A DNA stretch of 64,000 nucleotides from a virus (taxonomy: Duplodnaviria; Heunggongvirae; Uroviricota; Caudoviricetes). Each line of letters starts with the position of its first letter. Position 1 is the stretch's first letter. The notes beneath the pieces were generated by a model. That model ran no database searches. It was not told the DNA's origin and was given only the letters and a program-made list of their open reading frames with translations. The position numbers were made by a program, and so were the translations under genes. This document shows, in pieces, positions 1,292-61,738 of this stretch. The stretch lies in the IMG/VR virus record IMGVR_UViG_3300029590_000324; one strand, written 5' to 3'.

Positions 1292-2671
1292 ATGAAACCG
1301 AATAAACTTGAACGGTTTGTGAACGACCGAGAGCTGCATGAAAGAGCGCTTTCGCACATCGACCGCAAGGGACTCGATATGTGCGTGCTGTCCACGTTTT
1401 CGCAAGATGCAGCGTGGGCTCTTGCAGGCGACCTTATCGCTAATTGCAAAATCGAGTTCAAAGCCCCTGTAGAAATGTACATTGACAAGCTTACAGGCAA
1501 CTGGTTGACATTCGCCGAAGCAGAGAAGCGAAACTTTGAAGAAGTCCGCAAGCTTGCAGTTCTCGAAACGTTTGACCGAGTTCTGTGTAATACATTCTAT
1601 AAGATGTATTACGACGATTTTCACTACCTGATACATCCTAACTGTGTTTCTTACCGCAGGGGACTGTCAGCCGGCAAGACCGTAAAAGCTCTTGTCAGCG
1701 AGATGAACCGTAAGAAATGGTACAAAGGATACAAGCTTGACCTGAGCAAGTTCTTTGATACCGTAAATCGTGAAACGCTTGACAGAACACTCGATATTAT
1801 AACTCCCGATAAGGATTGTATCGATAACATAGTAATTAAACATTATCATGACGATACTATAATCGTAAACGGAAAACCCGAATACCGGTACAAGTCGCTC
1901 AGTCAGGGCAACCCTATTGCCTGTCTGCTGGCTGACCTGTGCCTGAGAGATATTGATGAAGCTGTAAGCAAGATGGATGTTATCTATTATCGCTATTCTG
2001 ACGATATCATAATCCTCGGCAGGGAAGCTGACCACGCCCTCGAAGTTATAAAGCAGATGCTCGAACCAAAGGGTGTAACTCTTAATCCTAAAAAGGTCAA
2101 AGCGTTGCAGGCAGATAAAGACTGGTTCGAGTTTCTGGGCTTTAAGATACGTGGCGACTTGATAACTGTGTCTGCGAAAACTCTCAGAGGTATCGAGCAG
2201 CATATAAAATCTGAAACGATACAGTGGAGCAGAGAACACAAAAGACTGGCTACCGAAGCAGAGACCAAGCGGATATGCAGGCGGCTCCAGAAGTATCTGT
2301 TCCTTGCATATGAAGAGAACAGCAACCAGTTCGGCATGTGTCAGTATCTGTTCGGAACCATTAACTGCAAACACGATATCGACATGATAGACAGGTATTG
2401 CAAAGACTGTTTAAGAGCAGTAATAACAGGTCGCAATAAGGTTTGGGGTCTCGGTTCTACAGATAATAACTCCAATTACACGATCCAGTTCCAGAAAGGA
2501 ATAAACGTTAAAGCTAACAGGGAAAGGACCGTGGCAGACGGAATAGATATGGTAAGGGCTGCCGGTTGGTACAGCCTTAATCATATGTACAAAGTCTATC
2601 ATACCGACCACGAACTCTGGCTGAGCGAGATAAACAAAATAAAAGGAGGTGTTATACATGACGCTGTATGA
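1292..2671 (+). CDS. reverse transcriptase (retron/group-II/UG-like lineage, not DGR type)
   Basis: RT motifs visible: SYRRGLSAGKTV (motif 1), KLDLSKFFDTV (motif 2/A), SQGNPIACLLADL (motif 4, QGxxxSP-like), YRYSDDIIILG (YxDD catalytic motif C), FEFLGF (motif 7); ~180 aa C-terminal extension with a Cys cluster. Confidence 0.85.
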   Translation: MKPNKLERFVNDRELHERALSHIDRKGLDMCVLSTFSQDAAWALAGDLIANCKIEFKAPVEMYIDKLTGNWLTFAEAEKRNFEEVRKLAVLETFDRVLCNTFYKMYYDDFHYLIHPNCVSYRRGLSAGKTVKALVSEMNRKKWYKGYKLDLSKFFDTVNRETLDRTLDIITPDKDCIDNIVIKHYHDDTIIVNGKPEYRYKSLSQGNPIACLLADLCLRDIDEAVSKMDVIYYRYSDDIIILGREADHALEVIKQMLEPKGVTLNPKKVKALQADKDWFEFLGFKIRGDLITVSAKTLRGIEQHIKSETIQWSREHKRLATEAETKRICRRLQKYLFLAYEENSNQFGMCQYLFGTINCKHDIDMIDRYCKDCLRAVITGRNKVWGLGSTDNNSNYTIQFQKGINVKANRERTVADGIDMVRAAGWYSLNHMYKVYHTDHELWLSEINKIKGGVIHDAV

Positions 2672-3101
2672 TGCGTTAATTGCAAAATCAGAATCGGGGC
2701 ATAAGCTCAGGTTCGATCTGGTCAAAAAGAATATCAGAATAGATAAGCGTGTCGTAATGGAAAACGGCAAGCTTGTAGCTGATATGATAGGCGGCGAAGT
2801 TATCGACTCGTTGGGGTCTCCTGTGTCCGGCTATGACGATCTGGTAACTCTTTACGAGAACTTTATTCATTCGTCACCGAGCAGTGAGAACAGCCGCAAG
2901 ACTTACCTGTTTAAACCTCTGTCTGCCGATGAGCTGAGCATGACCGACTTTTACCGTAACAATAGCCGAGACGTAATGCACGCAAAGCTTTGTGCCGCTA
3001 TTATAATCGGAAGTCTTAACGGTACCCTTAAATGGGAAACGCCCGGCTGGTTCCGTAAACTGACCGATAGGTTCATAATCTATCGCAGCTATATCCAGTA
3101 A
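2658..3101 (+). CDS. hypothetical protein translationally coupled to the RT (147 aa)
   Basis: GGAGG RBS lies inside the RT 3' end and the ATG overlaps the RT stop, so likely an RT accessory/effector; no known motif. Confidence 0.5.
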   Translation: MTLYDALIAKSESGHKLRFDLVKKNIRIDKRVVMENGKLVADMIGGEVIDSLGSPVSGYDDLVTLYENFIHSSPSSENSRKTYLFKPLSADELSMTDFYRNNSRDVMHAKLCAAIIIGSLNGTLKWETPGWFRKLTDRFIIYRSYIQ

Positions 3102-3144: not shown

Positions 3145-3978
3145 ATGACTAATAGCAATATGAACAACGCTAACCTTAACAACAGCAACCTCGATATGAA
3201 TGAGTTCGCAAAACTGGTGGCAAAGTCAATGCTCGATATGGCCAATACTCCAATCCCTACTGCCGACAATGATAACTCAGTTCCTGCACACGGTAAGTAT
3301 TTTGGCAAGACGATCTGCGGCGAAGTCTATAACCCCAGAACAACAAGACGTTGGATCTCCGCTCAGTTCATTAGACTTATGAGACAGGAGTGTGTCACCA
3401 CAAATATCAATCAGGTAATCGCAAATTTCTATACCTATAAGTACAGTATCCTCTATACCTGTAAGGAAGCTAAGCTGCTGGCTCACCTCAAAGATAACGA
3501 CCCCGTTGCATTTGAAGAGCGCAAGCATTTCTTTGATGTGAATAGCATCGCCGATATATTTATAAACTTCGCTAAGGAGTTCCAGCCCAGTCTTCAGAGT
3601 CTTATAAATACCGCTTGGTCATACTCAGACTTCGCTGTAATTGCAGAGGCTATTGAACTGGTAATTGCAAAGAGAGCGTTTGATATCCCCGAAGGCACAG
3701 GCATGAAGGGCGGCAGATACTTCAAGAACCACAAGCTTGCTAATGCGTTTATTCGCAGCTTCAAGAAGGCTGGTGCCTATTATACCTTAAAGAACTACAT
3801 TATGTTCGACAGAAGATTTGTCCTCCATTGGTTCGATGAAGTCTATACCAGAGAAAATGCTCTCAGAAAACTCAGACTTGAGATTCAGGCTCCTGACTAC
3901 TATTTTTATAAGGCACTTAAGGTTTCTATGGCGGAAAACTACATCAGCCTCAGCGATCCTTTTGCGAATATGGAATAA
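3145..3978 (+). CDS. hypothetical protein (277 aa), third gene of the RT operon
   Basis: AAAGGAG RBS; Asn-rich N terminus; no known motif. Confidence 0.5.
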   Translation: MTNSNMNNANLNNSNLDMNEFAKLVAKSMLDMANTPIPTADNDNSVPAHGKYFGKTICGEVYNPRTTRRWISAQFIRLMRQECVTTNINQVIANFYTYKYSILYTCKEAKLLAHLKDNDPVAFEERKHFFDVNSIADIFINFAKEFQPSLQSLINTAWSYSDFAVIAEAIELVIAKRAFDIPEGTGMKGGRYFKNHKLANAFIRSFKKAGAYYTLKNYIMFDRRFVLHWFDEVYTRENALRKLRLEIQAPDYYFYKALKVSMAENYISLSDPFANME

Positions 3979-4079
3979 AAAAATAACTGCAAACTCTCAG
4001 TCGGTAAATCTGTACATCATCCGGATTTCGCAGGTGTAGAAGGCTACTTTCGTCCCCTCAACACCTGCCAAATCACGGA

Positions 4080-5570
4080 TTCTTGATCTAAATGGTTTTA
4101 GTAAATCGCTGCGATTGAGAGTTATACTATTATAATTGTAACGGAGGAATACATGTGGTAACACGAAACAGTAATGGTGAATACGTTGTCAACGGCACAG
4201 TGCTCAGTTCTTACGATGCTTTCGATGTTTATAAATTCGTCAAGAGTGAATACAACGCAGAAGATATGGCGATGACTATCGAAGAAGAGTATGGTGCTCA
4301 GACAGAGGAAGAGGTAATTGCAAATCAAGAACTCTGGCATGACATACTGGATATGTATGAGGACTGCAGAAACAACGATGAGCAGTGGCATTACGACGCC
4401 GAATATGTTGTGTCCGAATTCCGCTCTGAGCTGGACGCTATAGCGGCAAATTACTAACTGCAAACCGACTTGTGAAAACAAAATTCAAGTCTGCAGCAAC
4501 ACGATCTCTCATTCTGGAGACCTCCAGAGTTCGAGATCGTTTATGCTGCCTCTTATCTAAATATCTTTAGTAAACATATGTTTCCACAAGCCGAATAATT
4601 CCTAATTCATAACACAAAATGCAATCAATAATCTCTCCCTCGGCGCTCAGTGATGCGTCACCCATCGCTTCACGCCGCTGTCGTGATTCTTCATATCTAA
4701 ATTACTTTAGCGACAATTTGGTGTTATGATTTCTTAATTCCCAGCGGCAACCTGTAAATTACGCATCTGGTCTGAAGCAAGAGTGTCAGGGATACTCCCT
4801 GAACTCTTCCTCAGACAAGATGGTATTATCTAAATCAATTTAGTGAACAACTGCTGTCGGGAATAGCCAATCTGATTTCTGTCCGTCCTAATGCAAACAT
4901 GTAATCCCTCAGATGAGAACCATCCAGCACACTGCTGGATGTTTCTCATCTCCGTGATACATATTATCTAAATGCTTTTAGCGAAAATTCGGCGGTCAGG
5001 AAATATATATCAATAATTGCAGTGCCTCAAATGCAGCAATGGTCATTGAGGAGCAACCGAAAAGTAGCCCGCTTTGCGGGCTAACTTCTCGGTGCGCCTC
5101 ACGACATTGTATCTAAAATCTTTTAGTGATATAATAGGTACTTCAATTAAATTCAGTAACCGTGATATCCAATATGCACTGCACCTTCGAAAGATGAGTC
5201 GATGACCCTCAATCAACTTCGTTGATTGAAGCGTCGATGACTCTTCTTTCAGAAGGTTCATATCTAAATTCCTTTAGCGATACCATGGATATTCCGGCCG
5301 CATAACCGAGTTTGGCAAACTGCATTTCGGGATCTTACACCGACGGGCACTATTCATACCTGACAAGTGCCCGACGTTTCAGATCCCTCATATCTAAACT
5401 GCTTTAGTAAATCGCCGCCAGGCTCGGTTCTGATAGCTGCAATCAGCATAATAACTTTGTACTATAGGAGGCGATCAGTCCAGTTACACTCCGCTTATCA
5501 GCGGGTGTCACGGACACTCACCTCCAATACATCTAAACCTTTGTAGAAAATATCTTGTTATGCTAATTGC
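4080..5570. repeat. array of 9 conserved palindromic ~25-bp motifs (consensus yATCTAAAtnnyTTTAGyrAa) spaced ~135 bp apart, alternating with unique GC-rich imperfect hairpins
   Basis: Motif copies near 4085, 4556, 4693, 4828, 4963, 5109, 5259, 5390 and 5528. Each unique spacer contains a long inverted repeat, e.g. ACGATCTC..GAGATCGT, AGCCCGCtttGCGGGCT, GGGATCT..AGATCCC. No ORF of 60 aa or more on the + strand between 4460 and 5600. Confidence 0.7.
4155..4457 (+). CDS. acidic hypothetical protein (100 aa, GTG start)
   Basis: GGAGG 7 nt upstream of GTG; lies between the first and second copies of the repeat motif. Confidence 0.4.
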   Translation: MVTRNSNGEYVVNGTVLSSYDAFDVYKFVKSEYNAEDMAMTIEEEYGAQTEEEVIANQELWHDILDMYEDCRNNDEQWHYDAEYVVSEFRSELDAIAANY

Positions 5571-5605
5571 AAAACAAAATAATTGTTTAATGGAGGTTAT
5601 AAATA

Positions 5606-5839
5606 ATGAAAAAGATAATAAAATTCACATTTATTGGAAACGACAGTTACAACAGACCCGTTTATAAAAACGAAAACGGAAAGTTATTTGTTGATGTTGA
5701 TCCTCGCAAAGATCATGAGCCAAAAATATGCACAAAATATCAAAATGCCTTTGATGGCGAACCTGATACACCGATAGACTGTATAACTGCATATTGCAAT
5801 GCAGAAATTGAATTTATACCCAAACGCATTACATGGTAA
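5606..5839 (+). CDS. hypothetical protein (77 aa)
   Basis: GGAGG RBS; first gene after the repeat array. Confidence 0.5.
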   Translation: MKKIIKFTFIGNDSYNRPVYKNENGKLFVDVDPRKDHEPKICTKYQNAFDGEPDTPIDCITAYCNAEIEFIPKRITW

Positions 5840-5956
5840 TTCAACCACTGATAAAAGTTTTTATGATTATCTGCTTAATAACGGTACTTCATTTGGAGTG
5901 GCTGTAAAAACGTATGCAGAGCATCTTCTCGACACGGCTAAAAGGGAGAAATAAAA

Positions 5957-8412: not shown

Positions 8413-8577
8413 ATGAAAGCAGTAAATATTATGTGGGACACTGACGGAGACAAAAAGCTTTTTGAAGAATTGCCCTCAGAAATTGAAATTCCCGACGACG
8501 TTGACGAAGAAGATATCGGGGATTATATCTCAGACCTAATTGGATTTTGCCATTTTGGGTACGACCTCGAAGATTGA
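8413..8577 (+). CDS. small acidic hypothetical protein (54 aa)
   Basis: Translated by hand; AAAGGAGATG RBS. Confidence 0.35.
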   Translation: MKAVNIMWDTDGDKKLFEELPSEIEIPDDVDEEDIGDYISDLIGFCHFGYDLED

Positions 8578-20931: not shown

Positions 20932-21008
20932 CTCCCAGTAGTCCAGAGGCAGGAGACAAGGGACTTAAAATCCCTACAGGATGGGTTCGAATCCCATCTG
21001 GGAGACCA
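20932..21008 (+). tRNA. tRNA with anticodon TAA (Leu by anticodon) but class I architecture with a short variable loop
   Basis: Acceptor CTCCCAG/CTGGGAG; anticodon stem AGGGA/TCCCT with loop CTTAAAA; 5-nt variable loop; T arm ATGGG-TTCGAAT-CCCAT; discriminator A; encoded CCA. Confidence 0.6.
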
Positions 21009-21012
21009 ACAT

Positions 21013-21095
21013 GCGGGTGTGGTGAAATTGGCAGACACGATAGACTTAGGATCTATTGCGCAAGCGTGCAGGTTCAAGTCCTGTCACCCGCACCA
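21013..21095 (+). tRNA. tRNA-Leu (anticodon TAG), long variable arm
   Basis: Acceptor GCGGGTG/CACCCGC; anticodon stem ATAGA/TCTAT with loop CTTAGGA; variable hairpin TGCGCAAGCGTG; T arm GCAGG-TTCAAGT-CCTGT; discriminator A; encoded CCA. Confidence 0.7.
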
Positions 21096-21142
21096 GATGT
21101 TAATAATAGCTAACGTCAGTTGCTATATTATTAACGAAATAT

Positions 21143-21227
21143 GCGAGAGTGCTGGAATAGGCAGACAGAGCAGTCTCAAAAACTGCTGCAAGAATGCGTG
21201 TGGGTTCGAAGCCCATCTCTCGTACCA
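21143..21227 (+). tRNA. tRNA-Leu (anticodon CAA), long variable arm
   Basis: Acceptor GCGAGAG/CTCTCGT; anticodon stem GCAGT/ACTGC with loop CTCAAAA; long variable arm; T arm GTGGG-TTCGAAG-CCCAT; discriminator A; encoded CCA. Confidence 0.7.
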
Positions 21228-21289: not shown

Positions 21290-22600
21290 CCAGCCGCAAT
21301 CCCATTGGCTTTAGACGATGGGTTAAGCTCGCTGTGATATAACAGTGATGTAGAAAGGCGGTAACAAACCAATGTTTAAATCATTCAAATATAGGCTTTA
21401 TCCAAATAAAACACAAGAAATACAAATTCAGAAAACATTCGGTTGTTGTAGATTTGTTTATAATCAGACGCTTGCTTATAGGAAAAATCTTTATGAAGCA
21501 GAAAAGAAATCTATAAACAAGATAGGTTGTAACAACTATGTTAATCAAGTTCTTAAAAAAGAATATGAATGGCTTAAAGAGGTAGACAAATTTGCTCTTA
21601 CTAATTCTGTTTATAATATGGATAGCGCATATCAGAAATTTTTCAAAGAACATTCTGGTTATCCTAAATTCAAAAGTAAGAAGAATAATCATAAATCTTA
21701 TTCTACTAACAGTACAAACAACAACATAGAGGTTGATTTCGAGAAGAACAGAATTAAGCTTCCAAAACTTAAATGGGTAAAAGCAAAAGTTCATAGAGTA
21801 TTTGTTGGTATAATTAAATCTGCAACTTTATCTCAAACGCCAAGTGGCAAGTATTTTATTTCTATTCTTGTAAATTGTGAGAATTTTCAGATGAAGTCTA
21901 CTGGTGCTATGGTTGGTATTGATTTAGGTATCAAGGATTTAGTCATCACATCTGATGGTGAAAAGTTTGAAAACTCCAAAACTCTTTACAAGTATGAAAA
22001 GAAACTTGTAAAGGAGCAAAGAAAACTTGCTAAAAAGACAAAGGGTAGCAATAATAGGAACAAACAGCGTATTAAAGTCGCAAGACTGTATGAGAAGATA
22101 ACAAATATCCGTGTTGATAATTTGCATAAAATTTCTCACAAACTAATTCAGGAAAACCAACTGATAGTGAGTGAGGACTTAAAAATTAGCAATATGGTTA
22201 AAAATCATAATCTTGCAAAGAGTATTTCTGATTGTAGTTGGTATGAACTTACAAGGCAGTTACAGTACAAGGTTCACTGGAATGGTAGACAGTATATCAA
22301 GATTGATACTTACTTTCCAAGTAGTCAGACTTGTAGTGTATGTGGGTATATTAATAAGGAAACTAAGGATTTATCTGTAAGAGAGTGGACTTGTCCTTGT
22401 TGTAATACACGTCACGACAGAGATATAAACGCTGCTATAAATATTTTGTATGAAGGATTAAGGCTGATTAAATCAGCCTAAATAATAATGTAGTACGGTA
22501 GGAACTATCGGAATTTACGCTTGTGAAGTTAGTAGGTTACGAGGACGATGAAGCAAGAAGCCGACTGGCTTTAGACGGTCGGTAGTTCACAAGCAGTATT
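21290..22600 (+). mobile_element. IS200/IS605-family element carrying only tnpB (IS1341-like), with subterminal hairpins
   Basis: Left hairpin CCCATTGGCTTTAGACGATGGG (21301-21322) and right hairpin CCGACTGGCTTTAGACGGTCGG (22561-22582) share the loop TGGCTTTAGACG and flank the tnpB ORF; boundaries approximate. Confidence 0.5.
21372..22481 (+). CDS. tnpB: TnpB (IS605 OrfB-family RNA-guided nuclease-like transposase accessory protein)
   Basis: N-terminal [16 protein letters not shown] typical of OrfB; C-terminal RuvC-like region with zinc finger CSVCGY..CPCCN; 369 aa. Confidence 0.8.
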
Positions 22601-23702: not shown

Positions 23703-24527
23703 ATGATTTACATAAATAATGCACCTTTTGGAGATAAAAGTTTTCCTAATGGTGAAACCATTTTTGATATGGGAACTTATTATGTCAAGGATGCAGTAAA
23801 TGAAATCAAGCTTGTATATGAATCGGACGCTGATATCTTTAAGCTCATTGTGGCCAAGAAGTGTCTTGATGAACAGTCAAAGGAAAACAGAGTTGATTAC
23901 GGTTGGGATGAAGCAATCATAACTCTGACCATTGCATATATGCCATATTCAAGAATGGATAGGCAGATGTCTTCAATGGCGTTCAGCCTCAGATATGTTG
24001 CCGATATCATCAATTCTCTTAATTTTGATTCGGTAACAATACTTACACCTCACTCCAATGTAACTCCGGCACTTATTAACAATGTCAGAACCATATACGA
24101 TATCGGCGTTAATGAGGCATATAAATACAGTTCCCCCGATTACGTATTCTATCCCGACAACGGAGCCTGCAAGTCGTTTGGAGAACATCTCAAATATACT
24201 AATTACTTTTACGGTAACAAGAAGCGTGAGCTTTCAACCGGAAAGATTGAAAAGTATGAGCTGGTTAATGCCCCCGATATTAAGGACAAAAACATTCTGA
24301 TAATCGATGACCTTTGTGTTAAGGGCGGCACATTTATTCTTGCAGCTCAGGCTCTTAAAGCGGCAGGTGCAGCCAAGGTAGATTTGTTTGTAACTCATCT
24401 TGAAAAGGCTGTGTATAAAGGAATACTGCTCACGACAGACTGGATTGATCATATCTATACAGTCAATACACTGGAAATCCCCATTGAAAACGACAAAATA
24501 ACAGAAATAAGAGGTAATTTCATATGA
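23703..24527 (+). CDS. ribose-phosphate pyrophosphokinase (Prs)-family protein; candidate ADP-ribose pyrophosphokinase (Adps-like)
   Basis: IAYMPYSRMDRQ resembles Prs IPYFGYARQDRR; PRPP-binding loop IIDDLCVKGGT resembles VLVDDMIDTAGT; stop overlaps the NAMPT-like gene start. Confidence 0.6.
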   Translation: MIYINNAPFGDKSFPNGETIFDMGTYYVKDAVNEIKLVYESDADIFKLIVAKKCLDEQSKENRVDYGWDEAIITLTIAYMPYSRMDRQMSSMAFSLRYVADIINSLNFDSVTILTPHSNVTPALINNVRTIYDIGVNEAYKYSSPDYVFYPDNGACKSFGEHLKYTNYFYGNKKRELSTGKIEKYELVNAPDIKDKNILIIDDLCVKGGTFILAAQALKAAGAAKVDLFVTHLEKAVYKGILLTTDWIDHIYTVNTLEIPIENDKITEIRGNFI

Positions 24528-25990
24528 ATGAAATAATGCCAATGCTTCTTTGTGATTTTTACAAAGAGTGTATGATGGTTCAGCAGAGCCCTAAGCTCAC
24601 TAAGCTCGTATCCTATATGACACCAAGAATGTCCAGAGTACACGATGACAAACTCGTCTTCTTCGGACTTCAGGCGTTTATCGAGAAGTATCTTGTGGAA
24701 TATTTCAATAACGAATTTTTCAATAAGCCTGTCGATGAGGTCTGCGCCGAGTATGAAAGAGTTCTCGGCAGCACTCTCGGCAAGGGTACATATGATACCG
24801 CAAAAATCAGAGCTCTTCACGAGCTGGGCTATTTGCCTGTTAAGATATCGGCACTTCCCGAGGGAACCCGTGTCCCCATGCACGTTCCTATGCTGGAAAT
24901 AAGCAGCACACACCCTGATTTTATATGGGTCGGACAGTTCCTTGAAAGTCTTATGAGTGCTTCACTCTGGCATCCAATGGTGTCTGCAAATGTGGGTTAT
25001 TGGTATCGTCAGATCGTTGATAAGTTCTACGACATCAGCGTTGAAGATGACGTGCCCAGAGCCAAGGCTCTCGGAGACTTTTCATTCAGAGGTCAGCATA
25101 GTCTTGAAAGTGCGACTGCCTCTTCTGCCGGTTGGTGTACTTCGTTTCTGAATACAGCGACAGTACCCGCAATTCCTTGGCTGGAAAAATATTATCACTG
25201 CGATTGTACCAAGGAGCCCGTAGCTTACGGGGCGGTATCAACCGAACATTCAGTGATGACCAGCAACTTCTCTATCGACGGCGATGAGATTACATTTCTC
25301 CGTAAGCTGCTGACTGAGCTTTATCCCAATAACAGTTTCAGTGTAGTATGCGATTCTTATGATTACTGGAATGTAGTCAATAATATTTTGCCTCAGCTAA
25401 AGCCTGAAATTATGGCTCACAACGGCTGTATGCTGATAAGAGGGGACAGCGGAGACCCTGTTGAGATAGTGACCGAAACTGTGTTTGCACTCTGGGAAGA
25501 ATTCGGCGGAACAGTCAACAGCAAGGGTTATAAGGTACTCGACCCTCACGTTAAGGCGATTTACGGGGACAGTATCACCGTTCAGCGCTGTCAGCAGATA
25601 TACCAGAGGCTCATTGACAACGGTTTTGCCTGCAATAATGTAATCCTCGGTGTCGGCAGCTTCTCAATGATGTGCGTTGAAGAGGACAATATGCTCAAGC
25701 CTTTTACCCGTGATACATATTCAATAGCTATTAAGGCGACTTATGGTGAGGTAGATGGTAAGCCCATAATGATTTTTAAGAATCCCAAGACAGATACGGG
25801 ATTCAAGAAGTCCCAGAAGGGTATGTGCTTTATCTATAAAGAGCACGGCGAGATAAAGTATCAGGACGGCTTTACAGCTGAGACAGTTCCTGTCAATGGC
25901 TTGTTCCGCACAGTGTTCGAGGATGGTAAATGCTATAATACTCAGACGCTTGCTGACGTTCGTAATACGCTTTACGAAGGAGGATTCTGA
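24524..25990 (+). CDS. nicotinamide phosphoribosyltransferase (NAMPT/NadV) family enzyme; candidate Namat-like
   Basis: Several blocks align with human NAMPT: ALPEGTRVP~AVPEGFVIP, LGDFSFRGQHSLESA~LHDFGYRGVSSQETA, SVVCDSYDYWN~SVVSDSYDIYN, LIRGDSGDP~IIRPDSGNP, NSKGYKVLDPHVKAIYGDSI~[20 protein letters not shown]. Confidence 0.85.
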   Translation: MNEIMPMLLCDFYKECMMVQQSPKLTKLVSYMTPRMSRVHDDKLVFFGLQAFIEKYLVEYFNNEFFNKPVDEVCAEYERVLGSTLGKGTYDTAKIRALHELGYLPVKISALPEGTRVPMHVPMLEISSTHPDFIWVGQFLESLMSASLWHPMVSANVGYWYRQIVDKFYDISVEDDVPRAKALGDFSFRGQHSLESATASSAGWCTSFLNTATVPAIPWLEKYYHCDCTKEPVAYGAVSTEHSVMTSNFSIDGDEITFLRKLLTELYPNNSFSVVCDSYDYWNVVNNILPQLKPEIMAHNGCMLIRGDSGDPVEIVTETVFALWEEFGGTVNSKGYKVLDPHVKAIYGDSITVQRCQQIYQRLIDNGFACNNVILGVGSFSMMCVEEDNMLKPFTRDTYSIAIKATYGEVDGKPIMIFKNPKTDTGFKKSQKGMCFIYKEHGEIKYQDGFTAETVPVNGLFRTVFEDGKCYNTQTLADVRNTLYEGGF

Positions 25991-44208: not shown

Positions 44209-46407
44209 ATGAGAGTATTATTGCTTTTAAGAGGTTCCGCAGGCTGCGGAAAATCAACATGGATCGAGCAGAACGGATTGAAGCCGTATGCGATTTCGCC
44301 TGACGACATCAGACTTATGCACCAGAGCCCCATAATGCAGCCTGATGGTTCTTACGGTATCAGCCAGAGCAACGATAAAGCTGTATGGAATACTTTATTC
44401 AATTTGCTTGAATATCGTATGCAGAAAGGCGAGTTTACGGTGATCGATGCAACAAACTCTAAAACCGTAGAAATGAACAGATACAAAAATATGTGCGACA
44501 CCTACCGTTACAGAATTTATTGTGTCGATTTCACAGATATTCCCATTGAGGAAGTCAAAAGAAGAAACGCAGGCAGACCCGAGGTCAAAAGAGTTTCCGA
44601 TGAGGTCATTGATAAAATGTACTCAAGGTTTGCTACTCAGAAGATTCCTGCAGGCATTAAAGTAATAAAGCCTAATGAATTAGACAAGATCTGGTTCAAG
44701 AGCATTGATTTGTCTGAATATAAGAAAATCCACCATATCGGAGACATTCACGGTTGCTATTCTGCACTTCAGTATTATTTTGACTTCAACGGCGGACTTA
44801 AAGACGACGAGTTCTACATATTCCTCGGTGATTATATCGACAGGGGAATTGAGAACGTCGAGGTGCTTAACTTCCTTATCTCCATCAAAGATAAAAAGAA
44901 CGTCTTTATGCTTGAGGGAAATCATGAGAGATGGCTGTGGCTTTATGCCAACGATGTCCGTGGCAAATCCAAGGAATTTGAACTTGTTACCCGTCCTCAG
45001 CTTGATGCTGCCAAGATCAGCAAAAAAGACCTCAGAATGCTTTACCGCAAATTTGGTCAGTGCGCTTATTATACATATAACGGTAATCAGTTCATTGTAA
45101 CTCACGCCGGCCTCAGCACAATCCCCGACAATCTCACATTTGTTGCAACTGATCAGATGATTCACGGCGTTGGTTCGTATAATGATTTTGAGACTATCTC
45201 TGACACCTTTATAAGAACTACACCCGAAAATACATATCAGATTCACGGACATAGGAACACGAAGTCGCTTCCTGTGCAGGTCAATGACAGAGTATTTAAT
45301 CTCGAAGGAAAGGTTGAATTTGGTGGCTGTCTCCGCTGCGTTCAGATAAGCAATGACGGATATAAGACTATGGAAATGCCCAACTATGTCTTCAAAACAC
45401 CCGAAGCTGTACAGGAACAATCTGTAGTAAACAGTTCTGTTGCCGATGTTATCATGTCTCTCCGTAGCAATCGTTACATTCAGGAAAAGTCTTTCGGCAA
45501 TATCTCGTCTTTCAATTTTACTAAGCAGGCATTTTACGACAAGGTTTGGGATGAGCAGACAACAAAGGCAAGAGGCTTATATATAGACACCGTAAAGGGC
45601 AAGGTCGCAGCGAGAGCTTATAATAAATTTTTCAATGTAAACGAGCGTTCGGAAACTAAATTTGATATGCTCCAGCATAAGCTCCAGTTCCCTGTAACGG
45701 CATACGTCAAGGAAAACGGCTTCCTCGGAATTGTTAGCTACGATGAATATAATGACGACCTTTTCATTGCCAGCAAATCGACTATCGAGGGCGATTTTGC
45801 GGGATATCTCAAAGATATGCTCTATCGCAAGGTTTCTGCCGATAATATCGCCGCTATGAAACAGTATATCAAAGACAATGATGTATCGTTCGTATTTGAG
45901 TGCGTTGATATGAAAAACGACCCTCACGTTATCGATTATCCCGACAGCGAACTGTTCCTGCTGGATATTGTACATAACACAATGGAGTTTTCAAAGTATG
46001 ATTACGAGCAGATGACCAATATAGCGGATAAATTTGGCATGAAGCATAAGGAAAAAGCCTATGAGATTGCCAACTGGCAGGAATTTTTCGACTGGTATTA
46101 TGAGGTGCTTGATCCCGATTATGAGTATCACGACAGAAAAATCGAGGGCTTTGTCATTGAAGATAGTGCGGGATATATGGTTAAGCTCAAGCTGACGTAT
46201 TATAACTTCTGGAAGTTTATGAGAAGCGTAGCTCAGGAGGCTATTCGTAAGGGATATATTCAGAGAACTGCGGCTCTTACAACTCCTTTGGCAAATGAAT
46301 TCTATGCTTGGGTCAAGCAGCTGCACGATGTTGAAGATAGGGATAGCATTCCTCGTGACATATGCACACTGAGAGGACTGTTTTATAAAGAAAAGGAGAA
46401 ATCGTAA
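44209..46407 (+). CDS. polynucleotide kinase-phosphatase-ligase (Pnkp-like trifunctional RNA repair enzyme)
   Basis: N-terminal P-loop LRGSAGCGKST; central calcineurin-type phosphoesterase motifs GDIHGCY, GDYIDRG, GNHE; C-terminal nucleotidyltransferase motif I KENG (KxNG); same domain order as Clostridium thermocellum Pnkp. Confidence 0.7.
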   Translation: MRVLLLLRGSAGCGKSTWIEQNGLKPYAISPDDIRLMHQSPIMQPDGSYGISQSNDKAVWNTLFNLLEYRMQKGEFTVIDATNSKTVEMNRYKNMCDTYRYRIYCVDFTDIPIEEVKRRNAGRPEVKRVSDEVIDKMYSRFATQKIPAGIKVIKPNELDKIWFKSIDLSEYKKIHHIGDIHGCYSALQYYFDFNGGLKDDEFYIFLGDYIDRGIENVEVLNFLISIKDKKNVFMLEGNHERWLWLYANDVRGKSKEFELVTRPQLDAAKISKKDLRMLYRKFGQCAYYTYNGNQFIVTHAGLSTIPDNLTFVATDQMIHGVGSYNDFETISDTFIRTTPENTYQIHGHRNTKSLPVQVNDRVFNLEGKVEFGGCLRCVQISNDGYKTMEMPNYVFKTPEAVQEQSVVNSSVADVIMSLRSNRYIQEKSFGNISSFNFTKQAFYDKVWDEQTTKARGLYIDTVKGKVAARAYNKFFNVNERSETKFDMLQHKLQFPVTAYVKENGFLGIVSYDEYNDDLFIASKSTIEGDFAGYLKDMLYRKVSADNIAAMKQYIKDNDVSFVFECVDMKNDPHVIDYPDSELFLLDIVHNTMEFSKYDYEQMTNIADKFGMKHKEKAYEIANWQEFFDWYYEVLDPDYEYHDRKIEGFVIEDSAGYMVKLKLTYYNFWKFMRSVAQEAIRKGYIQRTAALTTPLANEFYAWVKQLHDVEDRDSIPRDICTLRGLFYKEKEKS

Positions 46408-61400: not shown

Positions 61401-61738
61401 CTTAAAAATATAGATATGCAGATATACCAGAACCAGTGAATGAATCAGTCTCAAGATTTGGTAAGGTGATTTGGCAGGTGTGTCTTATCCCAATTATTAT
61501 TATTGTTCGTGAAACTTCGACACACCTCTGATGGTGTGTTTTTTGTGTGATGGTGTGTTTTTCAGCAACTGTTTCAAAGTGGTGTGTTTTTCAAAAAGCA
61601 TATTTTCCCATAGACACACTTTCGACACACCAAGCAATACTTTATATGCTTGAAAGTGGCTATAATACGCAATAAAATGCGCTGATACCAAATGAGTTGA
61701 AATCTAATAACATGATTTAATTCCTCCAAATAATTATT

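What the first reader, a model, noticed from the sequence alone, without database searches (positions are those of the whole stretch)
4080..5570. 1.5-kb non-coding array: 9 conserved palindromic motifs alternating with unique long hairpins
Nine copies of a ~25-bp motif (core ATCTAAA-N4/5-TTTAG, itself a CTAAA/TTTAG palindrome) recur every 131-150 bp. Each intervening unique segment has an AT-rich half and a GC-rich half forming a strong imperfect hairpin of 8-12 bp (ACGATCTC/GAGATCGT, AGCCCGC/GCGGGCT, GGGATCT/AGATCCC, GATGAGAA.CATCCAGCA/TGCTGGATG.TTCTCATC and others). No ORF is supported. The periodic conserved-site plus unique-hairpin architecture fits neither a CRISPR array (spacers too long and structured), nor tRNAs, nor simple iterons. 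Possibilities: (a) an array of small RNAs driven by a repeated promoter/operator; (b) repeated binding sites for a phage DNA-binding protein (partition/centromere-like or origin) with cruciform-prone spacers; (c) template or ncRNA elements serving the adjacent RT.
Basis: seen in the sequence. Interest (0 to 1): 0.8.

Follow-up and report, generated by a model that had tools for sequence, protein, structure and literature searches.

The report
Phage reverse-transcriptase hairpin RNA array
The repeats are real: they are nine "long hairpin plus conserved box" units that always accompany a gut-phage reverse transcriptase (UG27), most likely templates copied into small DNA hairpins, an element predicted in 2022 and, judging from word counts in an unreadable 2026 preprint, probably described there.

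Summary
Eight exact copies and one near-exact copy of ATCTAAA-N4-TTTAG lie on the + strand at 4086-5546 and nowhere else in 64 kb (0.01 expected). Each sits 0-6 nt 3' of a 57-81-nt imperfect hairpin. However, 4155-4457 is a real, conserved 100-aa gene, and the CTAAA/TTTAG palindrome is not conserved in relatives.

The genes just upstream are a complete UG27 reverse-transcriptase system: RT 1292-2671, RTas346 and RTas337. Every full-length relative of this RT, and about half of the more distant ones, carries the same hairpin-plus-box units downstream on the RT strand. This includes the cultured Bacteroides phage BS-TP1. A box model built only from other lineages recovers the window's boxes.

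Orthologous hairpins keep their pairing through 15 compensatory changes. Two hairpins are hypervariable, and units are gained and lost between relatives. The hairpins fold better in the minus sense (45 of 52; 69 against 26 in an independent set), as expected if the selected structure is the cDNA.

Best reading: an array of RT templates, each with a 3' handle, that yields DNA hairpins. Mestre et al. 2022 predicted a UG27 ncRNA with three stem-loops. A 2026 preprint that I could not read contains the terms "UG27 ncRNA", "ncRNA array" and "cDNA hairpin". This is a new member of a known kind.

The parts
1292..2671 (+). Reverse transcriptase, UG27 group (459 aa; catalytic YSDD present)
   Evidence: PADLOC RT_UG27 E=2.2e-84, covering 65-416 of 420 profile positions. 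Pfam RVT_1 6.8e-21. Y235, D237 and D238 are invariant in 39 homologues.
2649..3101 (+). UG27 accessory gene, cluster 346 (150 aa, function unknown)
   Evidence: PADLOC RTas346 1.2e-17. No Pfam, PHROG or PDB match.
3145..3978 (+). UG27 accessory gene, cluster 337 (277 aa, all-helical, function unknown)
3984..3993 (+). TAACTGCAAA, 5' flank motif of unit 0. A second copy at 4455-4464 lies before unit 1; degenerate copies lie before the other hairpins.
4019..4105 (+). Unit 0: hairpin 4019-4080 (hypervariable among close relatives) plus box 4086-4105
4155..4457 (+). ORF100, a very acidic small protein embedded in the array. It is conserved at this position in the lineage; a functional link to the array is not shown.
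4493..4574 (+). Unit 1: hairpin 4493-4549 plus box 4555-4574
4630..4714 (+). Unit 2: hairpin 4630-4688 (weakest) plus box 4695-4714
4760..4847 (+). Unit 3: hairpin 4760-4825 plus box 4828-4847
4899..4985 (+). Unit 4: hairpin 4899-4962 plus box 4966-4985
   Evidence: (I1)
5036..5130 (+). Unit 5: hairpin 5036-5110 (hypervariable, fully compensated) plus box 5111-5130
5180..5281 (+). Unit 6: hairpin 5180-5260 plus box 5262-5281
5329..5411 (+). Unit 7: hairpin 5329-5387 plus box 5392-5411
5467..5550 (+). Unit 8: hairpin 5467-5525 plus box 5531-5550 (box has one mismatch)

Best explanation
The region is the non-coding RNA array of a phage UG27 reverse-transcriptase system. It has nine units. Each unit is a short A/T-rich 5' flank (TAAyTGCA-like), a long imperfect hairpin of unique sequence, and a conserved 3' box of about 20 nt (yAT-ATCTAAA-N4-TTTAG-yrA), followed by a linker of constrained length.

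Proposed mechanism:
1. The array is transcribed on the + strand together with RT-346-337. This is inferred from co-orientation, the embedded + strand ORF100 and the absence of terminators.
2. The box, the only sequence conserved across the RT family, is the handle recognised by the RT or the RT/346/337 complex. DNA synthesis starts there or next to it (inferred).
3. The RT copies the adjacent upstream hairpin into a minus-sense cDNA that folds into a DNA hairpin. This is inferred from the strand asymmetry of the mismatches and agrees with the term 'cDNA hairpin' in the unreadable preprint.
4. Hairpin shape, not sequence, is conserved, and some units diversify quickly. The hairpins are therefore the working products, perhaps acting on host factors. 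The biological role is unknown; counter-defence or a replication-related role is a guess.

Confidence by step: about 0.9 that this is the UG27-associated array, about 0.55 that the hairpins are RT templates giving DNA hairpins primed at the box.
For: Identity. The RT is UG27 and both accessory genes are present.

Association with the RT family:
- All full-length RT relatives carry + strand chains of ATC(N)TAAA, each directly 3' of a long hairpin: L001-L017, L020, L085, L086 and L091-L095.
- More distant RT loci have the same layout with a homologous box, ATATCAAGAGTATAAAGCAATGTG.
- The cultured Bacteroides phage BS-TP1 has it too.
- In 65 non-identical loci there are 142 units in the 4.5 kb downstream of the RT, 12 upstream and 19 on the opposite strand; 36 of the 65 loci have at least 2 units by a strict pattern.
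- A box model built only from other lineages puts 7 window boxes among its 8 best hits in 128 kb.

Structure is selected:
- On 4 sequences, 15 pairs changed on both sides, against 5.2 +/- 1.8 in shuffles (0 of 500) and 1-6 in slid controls; 90% of cells are paired.
- On 7 sequences, RNAalifold gives 106 pairs, 15 of them compensatory.

Unit definition. The hairpin-to-box gap is 0-7 nt in 52 units. Arrays begin with a hairpin right after a stop codon and end with a box. All 9 window hairpins have a 3' box, but h0 and h1 have no box upstream.

Strand:
- The minus-sense sequence is more stable in 45 of 52 hairpins (p=1e-6).
- With DNA parameters it is 43 against 7.
- In distant loci it is 69 against 26 (p=9e-7).
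- Random window segments lean the other way.
- 1x1 mismatches on the + strand are C.T 21 and A.C 15, against A.G 4 and G.T 9. In the minus sense these read as G.A and G.T.
- GC skew turns negative only in the array.

Literature. Mestre et al. 2022 (PMC9226505) predicted a conserved UG27 ncRNA with three long stem-loops next to the RT in gut phages. Preprint 10.64898/2026.09.22.753630 contains 'UG27' 74 times, 'UG27 ncRNA' 11, 'ncRNA array' 10, 'cDNA' 24 and 'cDNA hairpin' 2.
Against: - There is no expression or cDNA data here; transcription strand, RNA ends and priming are all inferred.
- The strand asymmetry fits minus-strand RNA as well as cDNA, and could partly reflect a mutation bias.
- The box also lies a constant 65-75 nt upstream of the next hairpin, or of the start codons of ORF100 and ORF77. 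That would also suit a promoter or leader module.
- Some UG/Abi relatives (AbiK, DRT9; my own knowledge) do not copy their RNA in a simple templated way.
- In this lineage the array is not between the RT and the accessory gene, where Mestre et al. placed the ncRNA.
- The preprint could not be read, so its actual claims are known only from word counts.
- By my strict pattern, 29 of 65 loci show fewer than 2 units. That pattern misses known variants such as L016.
Confidence: 0.6

Rival explanations
1. The hairpins and boxes are structural RNA scaffolds that bind and regulate the RT complex but are not themselves copied. The RT product would be something else: untemplated or protein-primed DNA, or a copy of the linker.
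For: - Related Class 2 UG/Abi RTs use their ncRNA in unusual ways (own knowledge: AbiK, DRT9, DRT2).
- Linker length is constrained: 65-75 nt here, 62-71 in L008, 85-92 in L016.
- Linkers are at least as conserved in sequence as the hairpins.
Against: - Nine different hairpins, rapid compensated turnover and hypervariable units fit products or templates better than a scaffold, which should be uniform.
- The folding preference for the minus sense is not expected for a + sense scaffold.
- The preprint uses the term 'cDNA hairpin'.
Confidence: 0.15
2. The units are transcribed from the minus strand. The box (read as CTAAA-N4-TTTAGAT, or TTTAyGAT in relatives) is a phage-specific promoter or -10-like element directly upstream of each hairpin, giving antisense hairpin RNAs. 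The RT may or may not use them.
For: - The minus-sense sequence folds better.
- The box abuts the hairpin by 0-7 nt.
- TAyGAT in L009 and L016 resembles a -10 hexamer (read from the sequences).
Against: - There is no -35 partner, and no promoter-like or terminator-like excess on either strand.
- The array lies inside a co-directional operon and includes a + strand gene.
- The box is conserved across phages reported to infect both Bacteroidetes and Firmicutes, whose promoter types differ. It tracks the RT, not the host.
- There are no T-runs after the hairpins on the minus strand.
Confidence: 0.12
3. The box plus linker is a repeated + strand promoter or operator module, bound by a phage regulator. 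It drives whatever follows: seven small hairpin RNAs and two ORFs. The function is independent of the RT.
For: - The distance from the box to the next hairpin or start codon is a constant 65-75 nt, and the box precedes ORF100 and ORF77.
- A -10-like TAAT followed by TGCAAA lies just 5' of the hairpins. TAAYTGCAAA is strongly over-represented on the + strand of this genome region.
Against: - Hairpins h0 and h1 have no box upstream, and in relatives the first hairpin follows the RT stop codon directly.
- Box-to-hairpin adjacency on the 5' side is invariant.
- The motif is absent from the rest of the 64 kb and is tied to the RT family.
- No sigma-70-type signal is above chance.
- Eight of the 13 TAAYTGCAAA copies are inside ORFs.
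Confidence: 0.08
4. The region is degenerate coding sequence, a CRISPR-like array, or a chance repeat.
For: Mechanical ORFs of 30-72 aa exist in the region.
Against: - Close relatives differ by 1-2-nt indels.
- Substitutions are paired across stems.
- There are 8 exact motif copies against 0.01 expected.
- The 'spacers' are 115-135 nt and structured, and no Cas protein family was seen among the ORFs scanned.
- No Rfam family matches.
Confidence: 0.02

Closest known systems
UG27 reverse-transcriptase system of human-gut phages with its predicted ncRNA (Mestre et al. 2022, NAR, PMC9226505); apparently the 'UG27 ncRNA arrays / cDNA hairpins' of bioRxiv 10.64898/2026.09.22.753630 (not readable here)
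   Same: - Same RT group and the same two accessory genes (clusters 346 and 337).
- Phage context.
- Long stem-loops next to the RT with covariation.
- In most relatives, 3 or more units lie between the RT and the accessory gene, matching 'three long stem-loops'.
   Different: - Here the array has moved downstream of cluster 337, has nine units, and carries an acidic 100-aa gene after unit 0.
- The 2022 paper described one ncRNA, not a repeated hairpin-plus-box unit.
- What the 2026 preprint shows is known to me only from term counts.
Retron msr-msd ncRNA and msDNA
   Same: An RT with an adjacent ncRNA whose variable long hairpin is (here, presumably) copied into a small, structured, multicopy single-stranded DNA. 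A conserved element next to the hairpin is presumably used for recognition.
   Different: - The RT is not a retron RT; UG27 is the best PADLOC match by a wide margin.
- The conserved element is 3' of the hairpin, not 5'.
- Flanking a1/a2 inverted repeats and a branching G were not looked for.
- There are nine tandem units rather than one.
- It is encoded by a phage, and no effector typical of retron defence was recognised.
DRT2 (UG2) and DRT9 (UG28) ncRNAs of defence-associated Class 2 UG/Abi RTs
   Same: Same RT class (Mestre 2022). The structured ncRNA is encoded next to the RT and is needed as scaffold and/or template.
   Different: - Those ncRNAs are single, lie upstream of the RT and belong to bacterial defence systems.
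- Their products are concatemeric or homopolymeric cDNA (own knowledge), not a set of distinct hairpins.
CRISPR arrays
   Same: A short conserved repeat alternates with unique segments. Units are gained and lost between relatives.
   Different: - The 'spacers' are 115-135 nt, self-complementary and conserved through compensatory change.
- No Cas protein family was seen among the ORFs scanned.
- The repeat is about 20 nt and is tied to an RT.
Integron attC sites / IS200-IS605 subterminal hairpins (single-strand-specific imperfect palindromes)
   Same: Long imperfect hairpins whose folding is selected on one strand, with a short conserved flanking sequence.
   Different: - There is no integrase, no gene cassettes between the hairpins and no GTTRRRY core.
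- The TnpB at 21372-22481 is 16 kb away and unrelated.

Membership tests
UG27 RT system with associated ncRNA (Mestre et al. 2022) | RT of group UG27 | tested here: met
   PADLOC RT_UG27 2.2e-84, near full length; the next best is UG26 at 1.1e-46.
UG27 RT system with associated ncRNA (Mestre et al. 2022) | Accessory genes of clusters 346 and 337 next to the RT | tested here: met
   RTas346 1.2e-17 (2649-3101) and RTas337 5.1e-19 (3145-3978).
UG27 RT system with associated ncRNA (Mestre et al. 2022) | Encoded in a phage genome | tested here: met
   The closest relatives are IMG/VR viral contigs of 111-146 kb. The window carries PolIII alpha, DnaB, ligase, NrdD and 6 tRNAs.
UG27 RT system with associated ncRNA (Mestre et al. 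2022) | Structured ncRNA (long stem-loops with covariation) beside the RT | tested here: met
   Nine hairpins. There are 15 compensatory pairs, with 0 of 500 shuffles as high, and RNAalifold gives 15 of 106 pairs compensatory.
UG27 RT system with associated ncRNA (Mestre et al. 2022) | ncRNA lies in the intergenic region between the RT and the accessory gene | tested here: not met
   Here the RT and 346 overlap, and the array lies after 337. The feature is met in relatives L008, L009, L013, L015, L016, L020 and L030. This is a rearrangement within the family.
UG27 RT system with associated ncRNA (Mestre et al. 2022) | Match to the published covariance model | not testable with these tools
   The model is not in Rfam 15 and no supplement is held. 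As a substitute, box model R1, built from other UG27 lineages, ranks 7 window boxes in the top 8 hits; individual E-values are only 0.011-0.31.
UG27 'ncRNA array' giving 'cDNA hairpins' (bioRxiv 10.64898/2026.09.22.753630) | Whatever the preprint defines: array of ncRNAs, RT-made hairpin cDNA | not testable with these tools
   The paper cannot be opened. Only term counts are available. My strand-asymmetry result agrees with cDNA hairpins.
Retron | Retron-clade RT | tested here: not met
   PADLOC retron RT models score far below UG27, e.g. RT_I-B 3.5e-12.
Retron | msr 5' of msd, flanking a1/a2 inverted repeats, branching G | tested here: not met
   The conserved element is 3' of the hairpin, and the first hairpins lack any upstream conserved element. 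a1/a2 repeats and a branching G were not searched for specifically.
CRISPR array | Repeats of 23-47 bp with unstructured spacers of about 26-72 bp, cas genes nearby | tested here: not met
   Unique segments are 115-135 nt and self-complementary. No Cas protein family appeared in the PADLOC or Pfam scans of the neighbouring ORFs.
tRNA or known Rfam RNA | Match to a curated model | tested here: not met
   ARAGORN finds tRNAs only at 18.5-21.2 kb. Rfam gives nothing at gathering threshold and only chance-level hits at E<=1.
Iterons / origin or partition site | Closely spaced protein-binding repeats next to rep/par genes | tested here: not met
   The period is 130-151 nt, with selected hairpins in between. 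No rep/par family was seen in the ORFs scanned, and the element is tied to the RT across lineages. Protein binding itself cannot be tested here.

The most novel reading that the evidence does not exclude
The array is a fast-evolving library of RT-made DNA hairpins. Individual hairpins are under diversifying selection: h0 and h5 are about 63% identical between phages that are 98% identical elsewhere. This would arise because each hairpin engages a different host factor, for example as a decoy or inhibitor of host defences that sense or cut structured DNA, or as a primer or origin for phage replication. It would be a phage counterpart of retron msDNA used for offence rather than defence. The genome-wide TAAYTGCAAA motif would mark where the unit RNAs (and other early transcripts) start or are cut.
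Probability: 0.15. Interest if true: 0.8.

Novelty: new member of a known kind. Interest (0 to 1): 0.45.

Why it matters
UG27 is the one UG/Abi reverse transcriptase group that lives in phages rather than in bacterial defence islands. It is common in human-gut phages, with 1447 dereplicated genomes in Mestre et al. 2022, and in the only readable paper (Mestre et al. 2022) its role is unknown.

This window gives a clean, expanded example of its non-coding partner. It also supplies points that can be tested directly:
- The working unit is a hairpin with a 3' box.
- Selection acts on the fold of the minus-sense copy, that is, the cDNA.
- Units turn over, and two of the nine diversify very fast.
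- A cultured host-phage pair, BS-TP1 on Bacteroides salyersiae, carries the same element in an unannotated 1.35-kb gap next to an RT mislabelled as a tail protein.

If the products are programmable DNA hairpins made in vivo from an array, that also bears on retron-like ssDNA production tools. The element as such appears to be already described, so the value lies in confirmation and added detail, not in discovery.

Tried and rejected
- DNA similarity of 3900-5900 to 50,697 GenBank phages: no match.
- Rfam at gathering threshold and at E<=1: nothing relevant.
- tRNA scan: none in the region.
- Sigma-70 promoter and intrinsic-terminator scans: not above chance.
- Exact two-motif pattern in IMG/VR: only the three contigs already found through the RT.
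- Hairpin arms against the rest of the window, looking for targets: one 16-nt match (h0 against 61466-61481) with about 0.015 expected by my own estimate; the other hits are 11-15 nt at E 0.05-0.8. This is not enough to claim targeting.
- Reading the 2026 preprint by DOI in two forms failed, so I only counted terms through full-text search. A further probe for functional words did not return it.
- No supplement of Mestre 2022 is held.
- Rejected: the CTAAA/TTTAG mini-palindrome as the essential feature. It is not conserved in L008, L009, L016 or the distant loci.
- Rejected: a retron-like order with the conserved part 5' of its hairpin. Arrays start with a hairpin and end with a box.
- A snap-back self-priming idea for the box hairpin was considered. 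It is left as speculation for the same reason: the palindrome is not conserved.
Full report
1. THE OBSERVATION

The motif ATCTAAA-N4-TTTAG occurs exactly eight times in the 64-kb window. All copies are on the + strand, at 4086, 4555, 4695, 4828, 4966, 5111, 5262 and 5392. A ninth copy with one mismatch is at 5531. Dinucleotide-preserving shuffles give 0.01 exact copies. Spacings are 469 nt, then 130-151 nt.

Each copy is preceded by a long imperfect hairpin of 57-81 nt that ends 0-6 nt before the motif.

Three corrections are needed.
- The first, 469-nt interval contains a real gene, 4155-4457. It encodes 100 aa, has a GGAGG ribosome-binding site and a pI of 4.05. It is kept at the same place in every relative of this lineage and is visibly alignable with the 104-aa protein of the 87%-RT relative.
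- There is a hairpin upstream of the first motif as well (4019-4080). The repeating unit is therefore hairpin then motif.
- The small CTAAA/TTTAG palindrome is a peculiarity of this lineage.

2. CONTEXT

The three genes immediately upstream are a complete UG27 system.
- 1292-2671 matches PADLOC RT_UG27 at 2.2e-84 over almost the whole profile.
- 2649-3101 matches RTas346.
- 3145-3978 matches RTas337.

The RT has the YSDD catalytic box, invariant in 39 homologues. All genes in the region are on the + strand. The window is a large phage genome with PolIII alpha, DnaB, ligase, NrdD, an RNA-repair protein and six tRNAs.

Mestre et al. 2022 (PMC9226505) defined UG27 as a Class 2 UG/Abi RT found mainly in human-gut phages together with clusters 346 and 337. 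They predicted a conserved ncRNA with three long stem-loops in the intergenic region next to the RT, and stated that it needs experimental validation.

3. RELATIVES

I fetched 80 IMG/VR loci through an RT alignment. Further contigs came through exact proteins: L085 (RT 87%), L086 (47%), L091-L095.

Every locus with a full-length RT match has + strand chains of ATC(N)TAAA, each directly 3' of a long hairpin. The usual order is RT, then 3-8 units, then 346, then 337, then more units. Three units after the RT is the commonest case, which matches the published 'three long stem-loops'.

In the window's own lineage the order is RT, 346, 337, one or two units, an acidic ORF, then seven units. This lineage comprises the window, L001, L004, L095, L085 and L091-L094. 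All the loci that are not cut off have nine units.

More distant RT loci (L018, L025, L030) have the same periodic hairpins every 170-190 nt, with a homologous but longer box, ATATCAAGAGTATAAAGCAATGTGyC.

With a generalised pattern plus a hairpin requirement, 65 non-identical loci hold 142 units in the 4.5 kb downstream of the RT. They hold 12 in the 4.5 kb upstream and 19 on the opposite strand of the whole loci. This pattern misses known variants, so the count is a lower bound: 36 of the 65 loci show at least two units.

A sequence model of the box built from seven other lineages, with no window-lineage sequence, ranks seven of the window's boxes among its eight best hits in 128 kb and finds an eighth lower down. 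Individual E-values are weak (0.011-2.2) because the model is short.

The cultured Bacteroides phage BS-TP1 has a homologous RT, annotated as a tail protein. It is followed by a 1.35-kb unannotated gap with about eight boxes every 170 nt or so, each after an inverted repeat.

4. THE HAIRPINS ARE SELECTED STRUCTURES

I aligned orthologous units of the window, L001, L004 and L085 and counted pairs on the window's own predicted stems.
- 90% of cells are paired.
- 15 pairs changed on both sides, against 5.2 +/- 1.8 in shuffles (0 of 500 as high) and 1-6 when the partners are slid.

With seven sequences, RNAalifold predicts 106 pairs, of which 15 carry compensatory changes. Close relatives differ by 1-2-nt indels, which excludes coding.

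Evolution is uneven. Hairpins h0 and h5 are 61-66% identical between phages whose RT and 337 genes are 98% identical at the nucleotide level and whose other hairpins are 84-100% identical. Yet h0 and h5 remain hairpins. Between the two sub-lineages, units are also gained and lost: window units 5 and 6 have no counterpart in L085, and L085 units at 8449 and 9494 have none in the window.

5. WHICH ELEMENT BELONGS TO WHICH

The box follows its hairpin at 0-7 nt in all 52 units measured. Arrays begin with a hairpin right after a stop codon (of the RT in most lineages; of 337 and of ORF100 here) and end with a box. All nine window hairpins have a 3' box, while h0 and h1 have no box upstream. This speaks for a hairpin-plus-3'-box unit and against a retron-like order.

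The distance from a box to the next element is nevertheless constant: 65-75 nt here, whether the next element is a hairpin or a start codon; 62-71 in L008; 85-92 in L016. This is unexplained and keeps a promoter or leader reading alive.

6. WHICH STRAND FOLDS

Folding the same 112-nt segments in both senses gives these results.
- The minus-sense sequence is more stable in 45 of 52 hairpins (mean 3.8 kcal/mol, Wilcoxon 1e-6).
- With DNA parameters it is 43 against 7.
- In the independent distant loci it is 69 against 26 (9e-7).
- Random segments of the window lean the other way, with the plus sense more stable in 144 of 200.

When stems are defined with Watson-Crick pairs only, the 1x1 mismatches on the + strand are C.T 21 and A.C 15, against A.G 4 and G.T 9. 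In the minus sense these are the tolerated G.A and G.T. GC skew is negative only in the array.

The array is co-oriented with the operon and has a + strand gene inside it. The simplest reading is therefore that the selected fold is that of the cDNA made from a + strand RNA. A minus-strand transcript would fit the asymmetry equally well. It would have to be made against the operon, and there is no promoter or terminator signal for it.

7. MECHANISM PROPOSED

Shown:
- The RT family, the unit architecture and their strict association.
- Structural selection on the hairpins.
- The strand asymmetry of the fold.

Inferred:
- The array is transcribed with the RT operon.
- The box is the handle recognised by the RT or its complex and marks where DNA synthesis starts.
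- The adjacent hairpin is copied into a minus-sense DNA hairpin.
- Nine different hairpins are made, some evolving fast.

Unknown:
- The primer.
- How unit RNAs are delimited.
- What 346, 337 and the acidic ORF100 do.
- What the hairpins are for.

8. WHAT IS KNOWN, AND NOVELTY

In the searchable library only two papers mention UG27 in this sense.

Mestre et al. 2022 predicted the ncRNA.

A preprint dated 24 Sept 2026 (10.64898/2026.09.22.753630, 'Coevolutionary mining of prokaryotic non-coding elements with a genome language model') could not be opened. Full-text term counts show:
- 'UG27' 74 times
- 'UG27 ncRNA' 11
- 'ncRNA array' 10
- 'hairpin' 33
- 'cDNA' 24
- 'cDNA hairpin' 2
- 'ssDNA' 5

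'Reverse transcriptase' is among the searched terms found in its abstract.

The element as such, and probably its product, therefore appear to be described. I file the window's array as a new member of a known kind, with a rearranged layout: the array lies after 337, there are nine units, and an acidic gene is embedded. The strand-asymmetry test, the hairpin-plus-3'-box unit definition, the hypervariable units and the BS-TP1 example are my own results. I cannot say whether the preprint already contains them.

9. VERDICT

It is interesting biology but not new as a class. Interest is 0.45.

Noticed in passing
window 379, 1441, 2362, 2677, 3662, 3984, 4315, 4455, 5564, 7714, 9094, 22814 (+ strand); also L001, L004, L085: TAAYTGCAAA has 12 exact copies in the window, all on the + strand and none on the minus strand; 11 of them lie in the first 9.1 kb. 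Eight are inside ORFs, in different frames (twice as N-C-K codons in the RT). With one mismatch allowed there are 42 matches against 20 +/- 4.6 expected. The 9-mer TAAYTGCAA recurs 13-17 times per 13-17 kb in relatives of this lineage. Two copies sit just 5' of hairpins h0 and h1. It could be a promoter, an RNA-processing site or an RT-related site; this is unresolved.
   Followed up: partly
window 4155-4457: ORF100 is embedded in the array. It is a very acidic small protein (pI 4.05; 24 D/E against 5 K/R), conserved at the same position in all nine-unit relatives, with no family match. It has a DNA-mimic-like composition.
   Followed up: partly
window 4019-4080 and 5036-5110: Two of the nine hairpins are hypervariable: 61-66% identity between phages that are 98% identical in the flanking genes. 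Pairing is fully kept. This suggests diversifying selection or allele exchange on single units.
   Followed up: partly
window 4061-4076 against 61466-61481: There is a 16-nt exact reverse-complement match between the 3' arm of hairpin h0 and an intergenic stretch 57 kb away. My own estimate of the chance expectation is about 0.015. It may be chance.
   Followed up: partly
hairpin loops: window about 5495 (CTTATCAG); L001 unit 0 (GTTATCAC); L008 units (TTTATCACA, ATTATCACA, TTCATCAC): Many apical loops contain a TTATCAC-like sequence. Other hairpins have tight 3-4-nt loops. This was not tested statistically.
   Followed up: no
window 21372-22481: A TnpB / IS605 OrfB-type gene (OrfB_IS605, Cas12f1-like TNB and HTH domains) lies directly after the tRNA-Leu cluster at 20932-21227. 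Its guide RNA and element ends were not examined.
   Followed up: no
window 44209-46407, 24524-25990: The phage encodes a kinase-phosphatase-Rnl1-type RNA repair protein and a nicotinate/nicotinamide phosphoribosyltransferase, alongside six tRNAs. Together these suggest countermeasures against tRNA-cleaving and NAD-depleting defences.
   Followed up: no
L096 (Bacteroides phage BS-TP1, PQ571274.1, record 79351-81962): The RT homologue gp79 is annotated as 'tail protein'. The 1.35 kb after it is unannotated and holds about eight hairpin-plus-box units, with box (A)ATATCGAAAnnATTAAAGA.
   Followed up: partly
window 50512: A strong + strand hairpin is followed by ATCTAAAGGAGG. This is probably a terminator and ribosome-binding site that matches the motif start by chance.
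   Followed up: no
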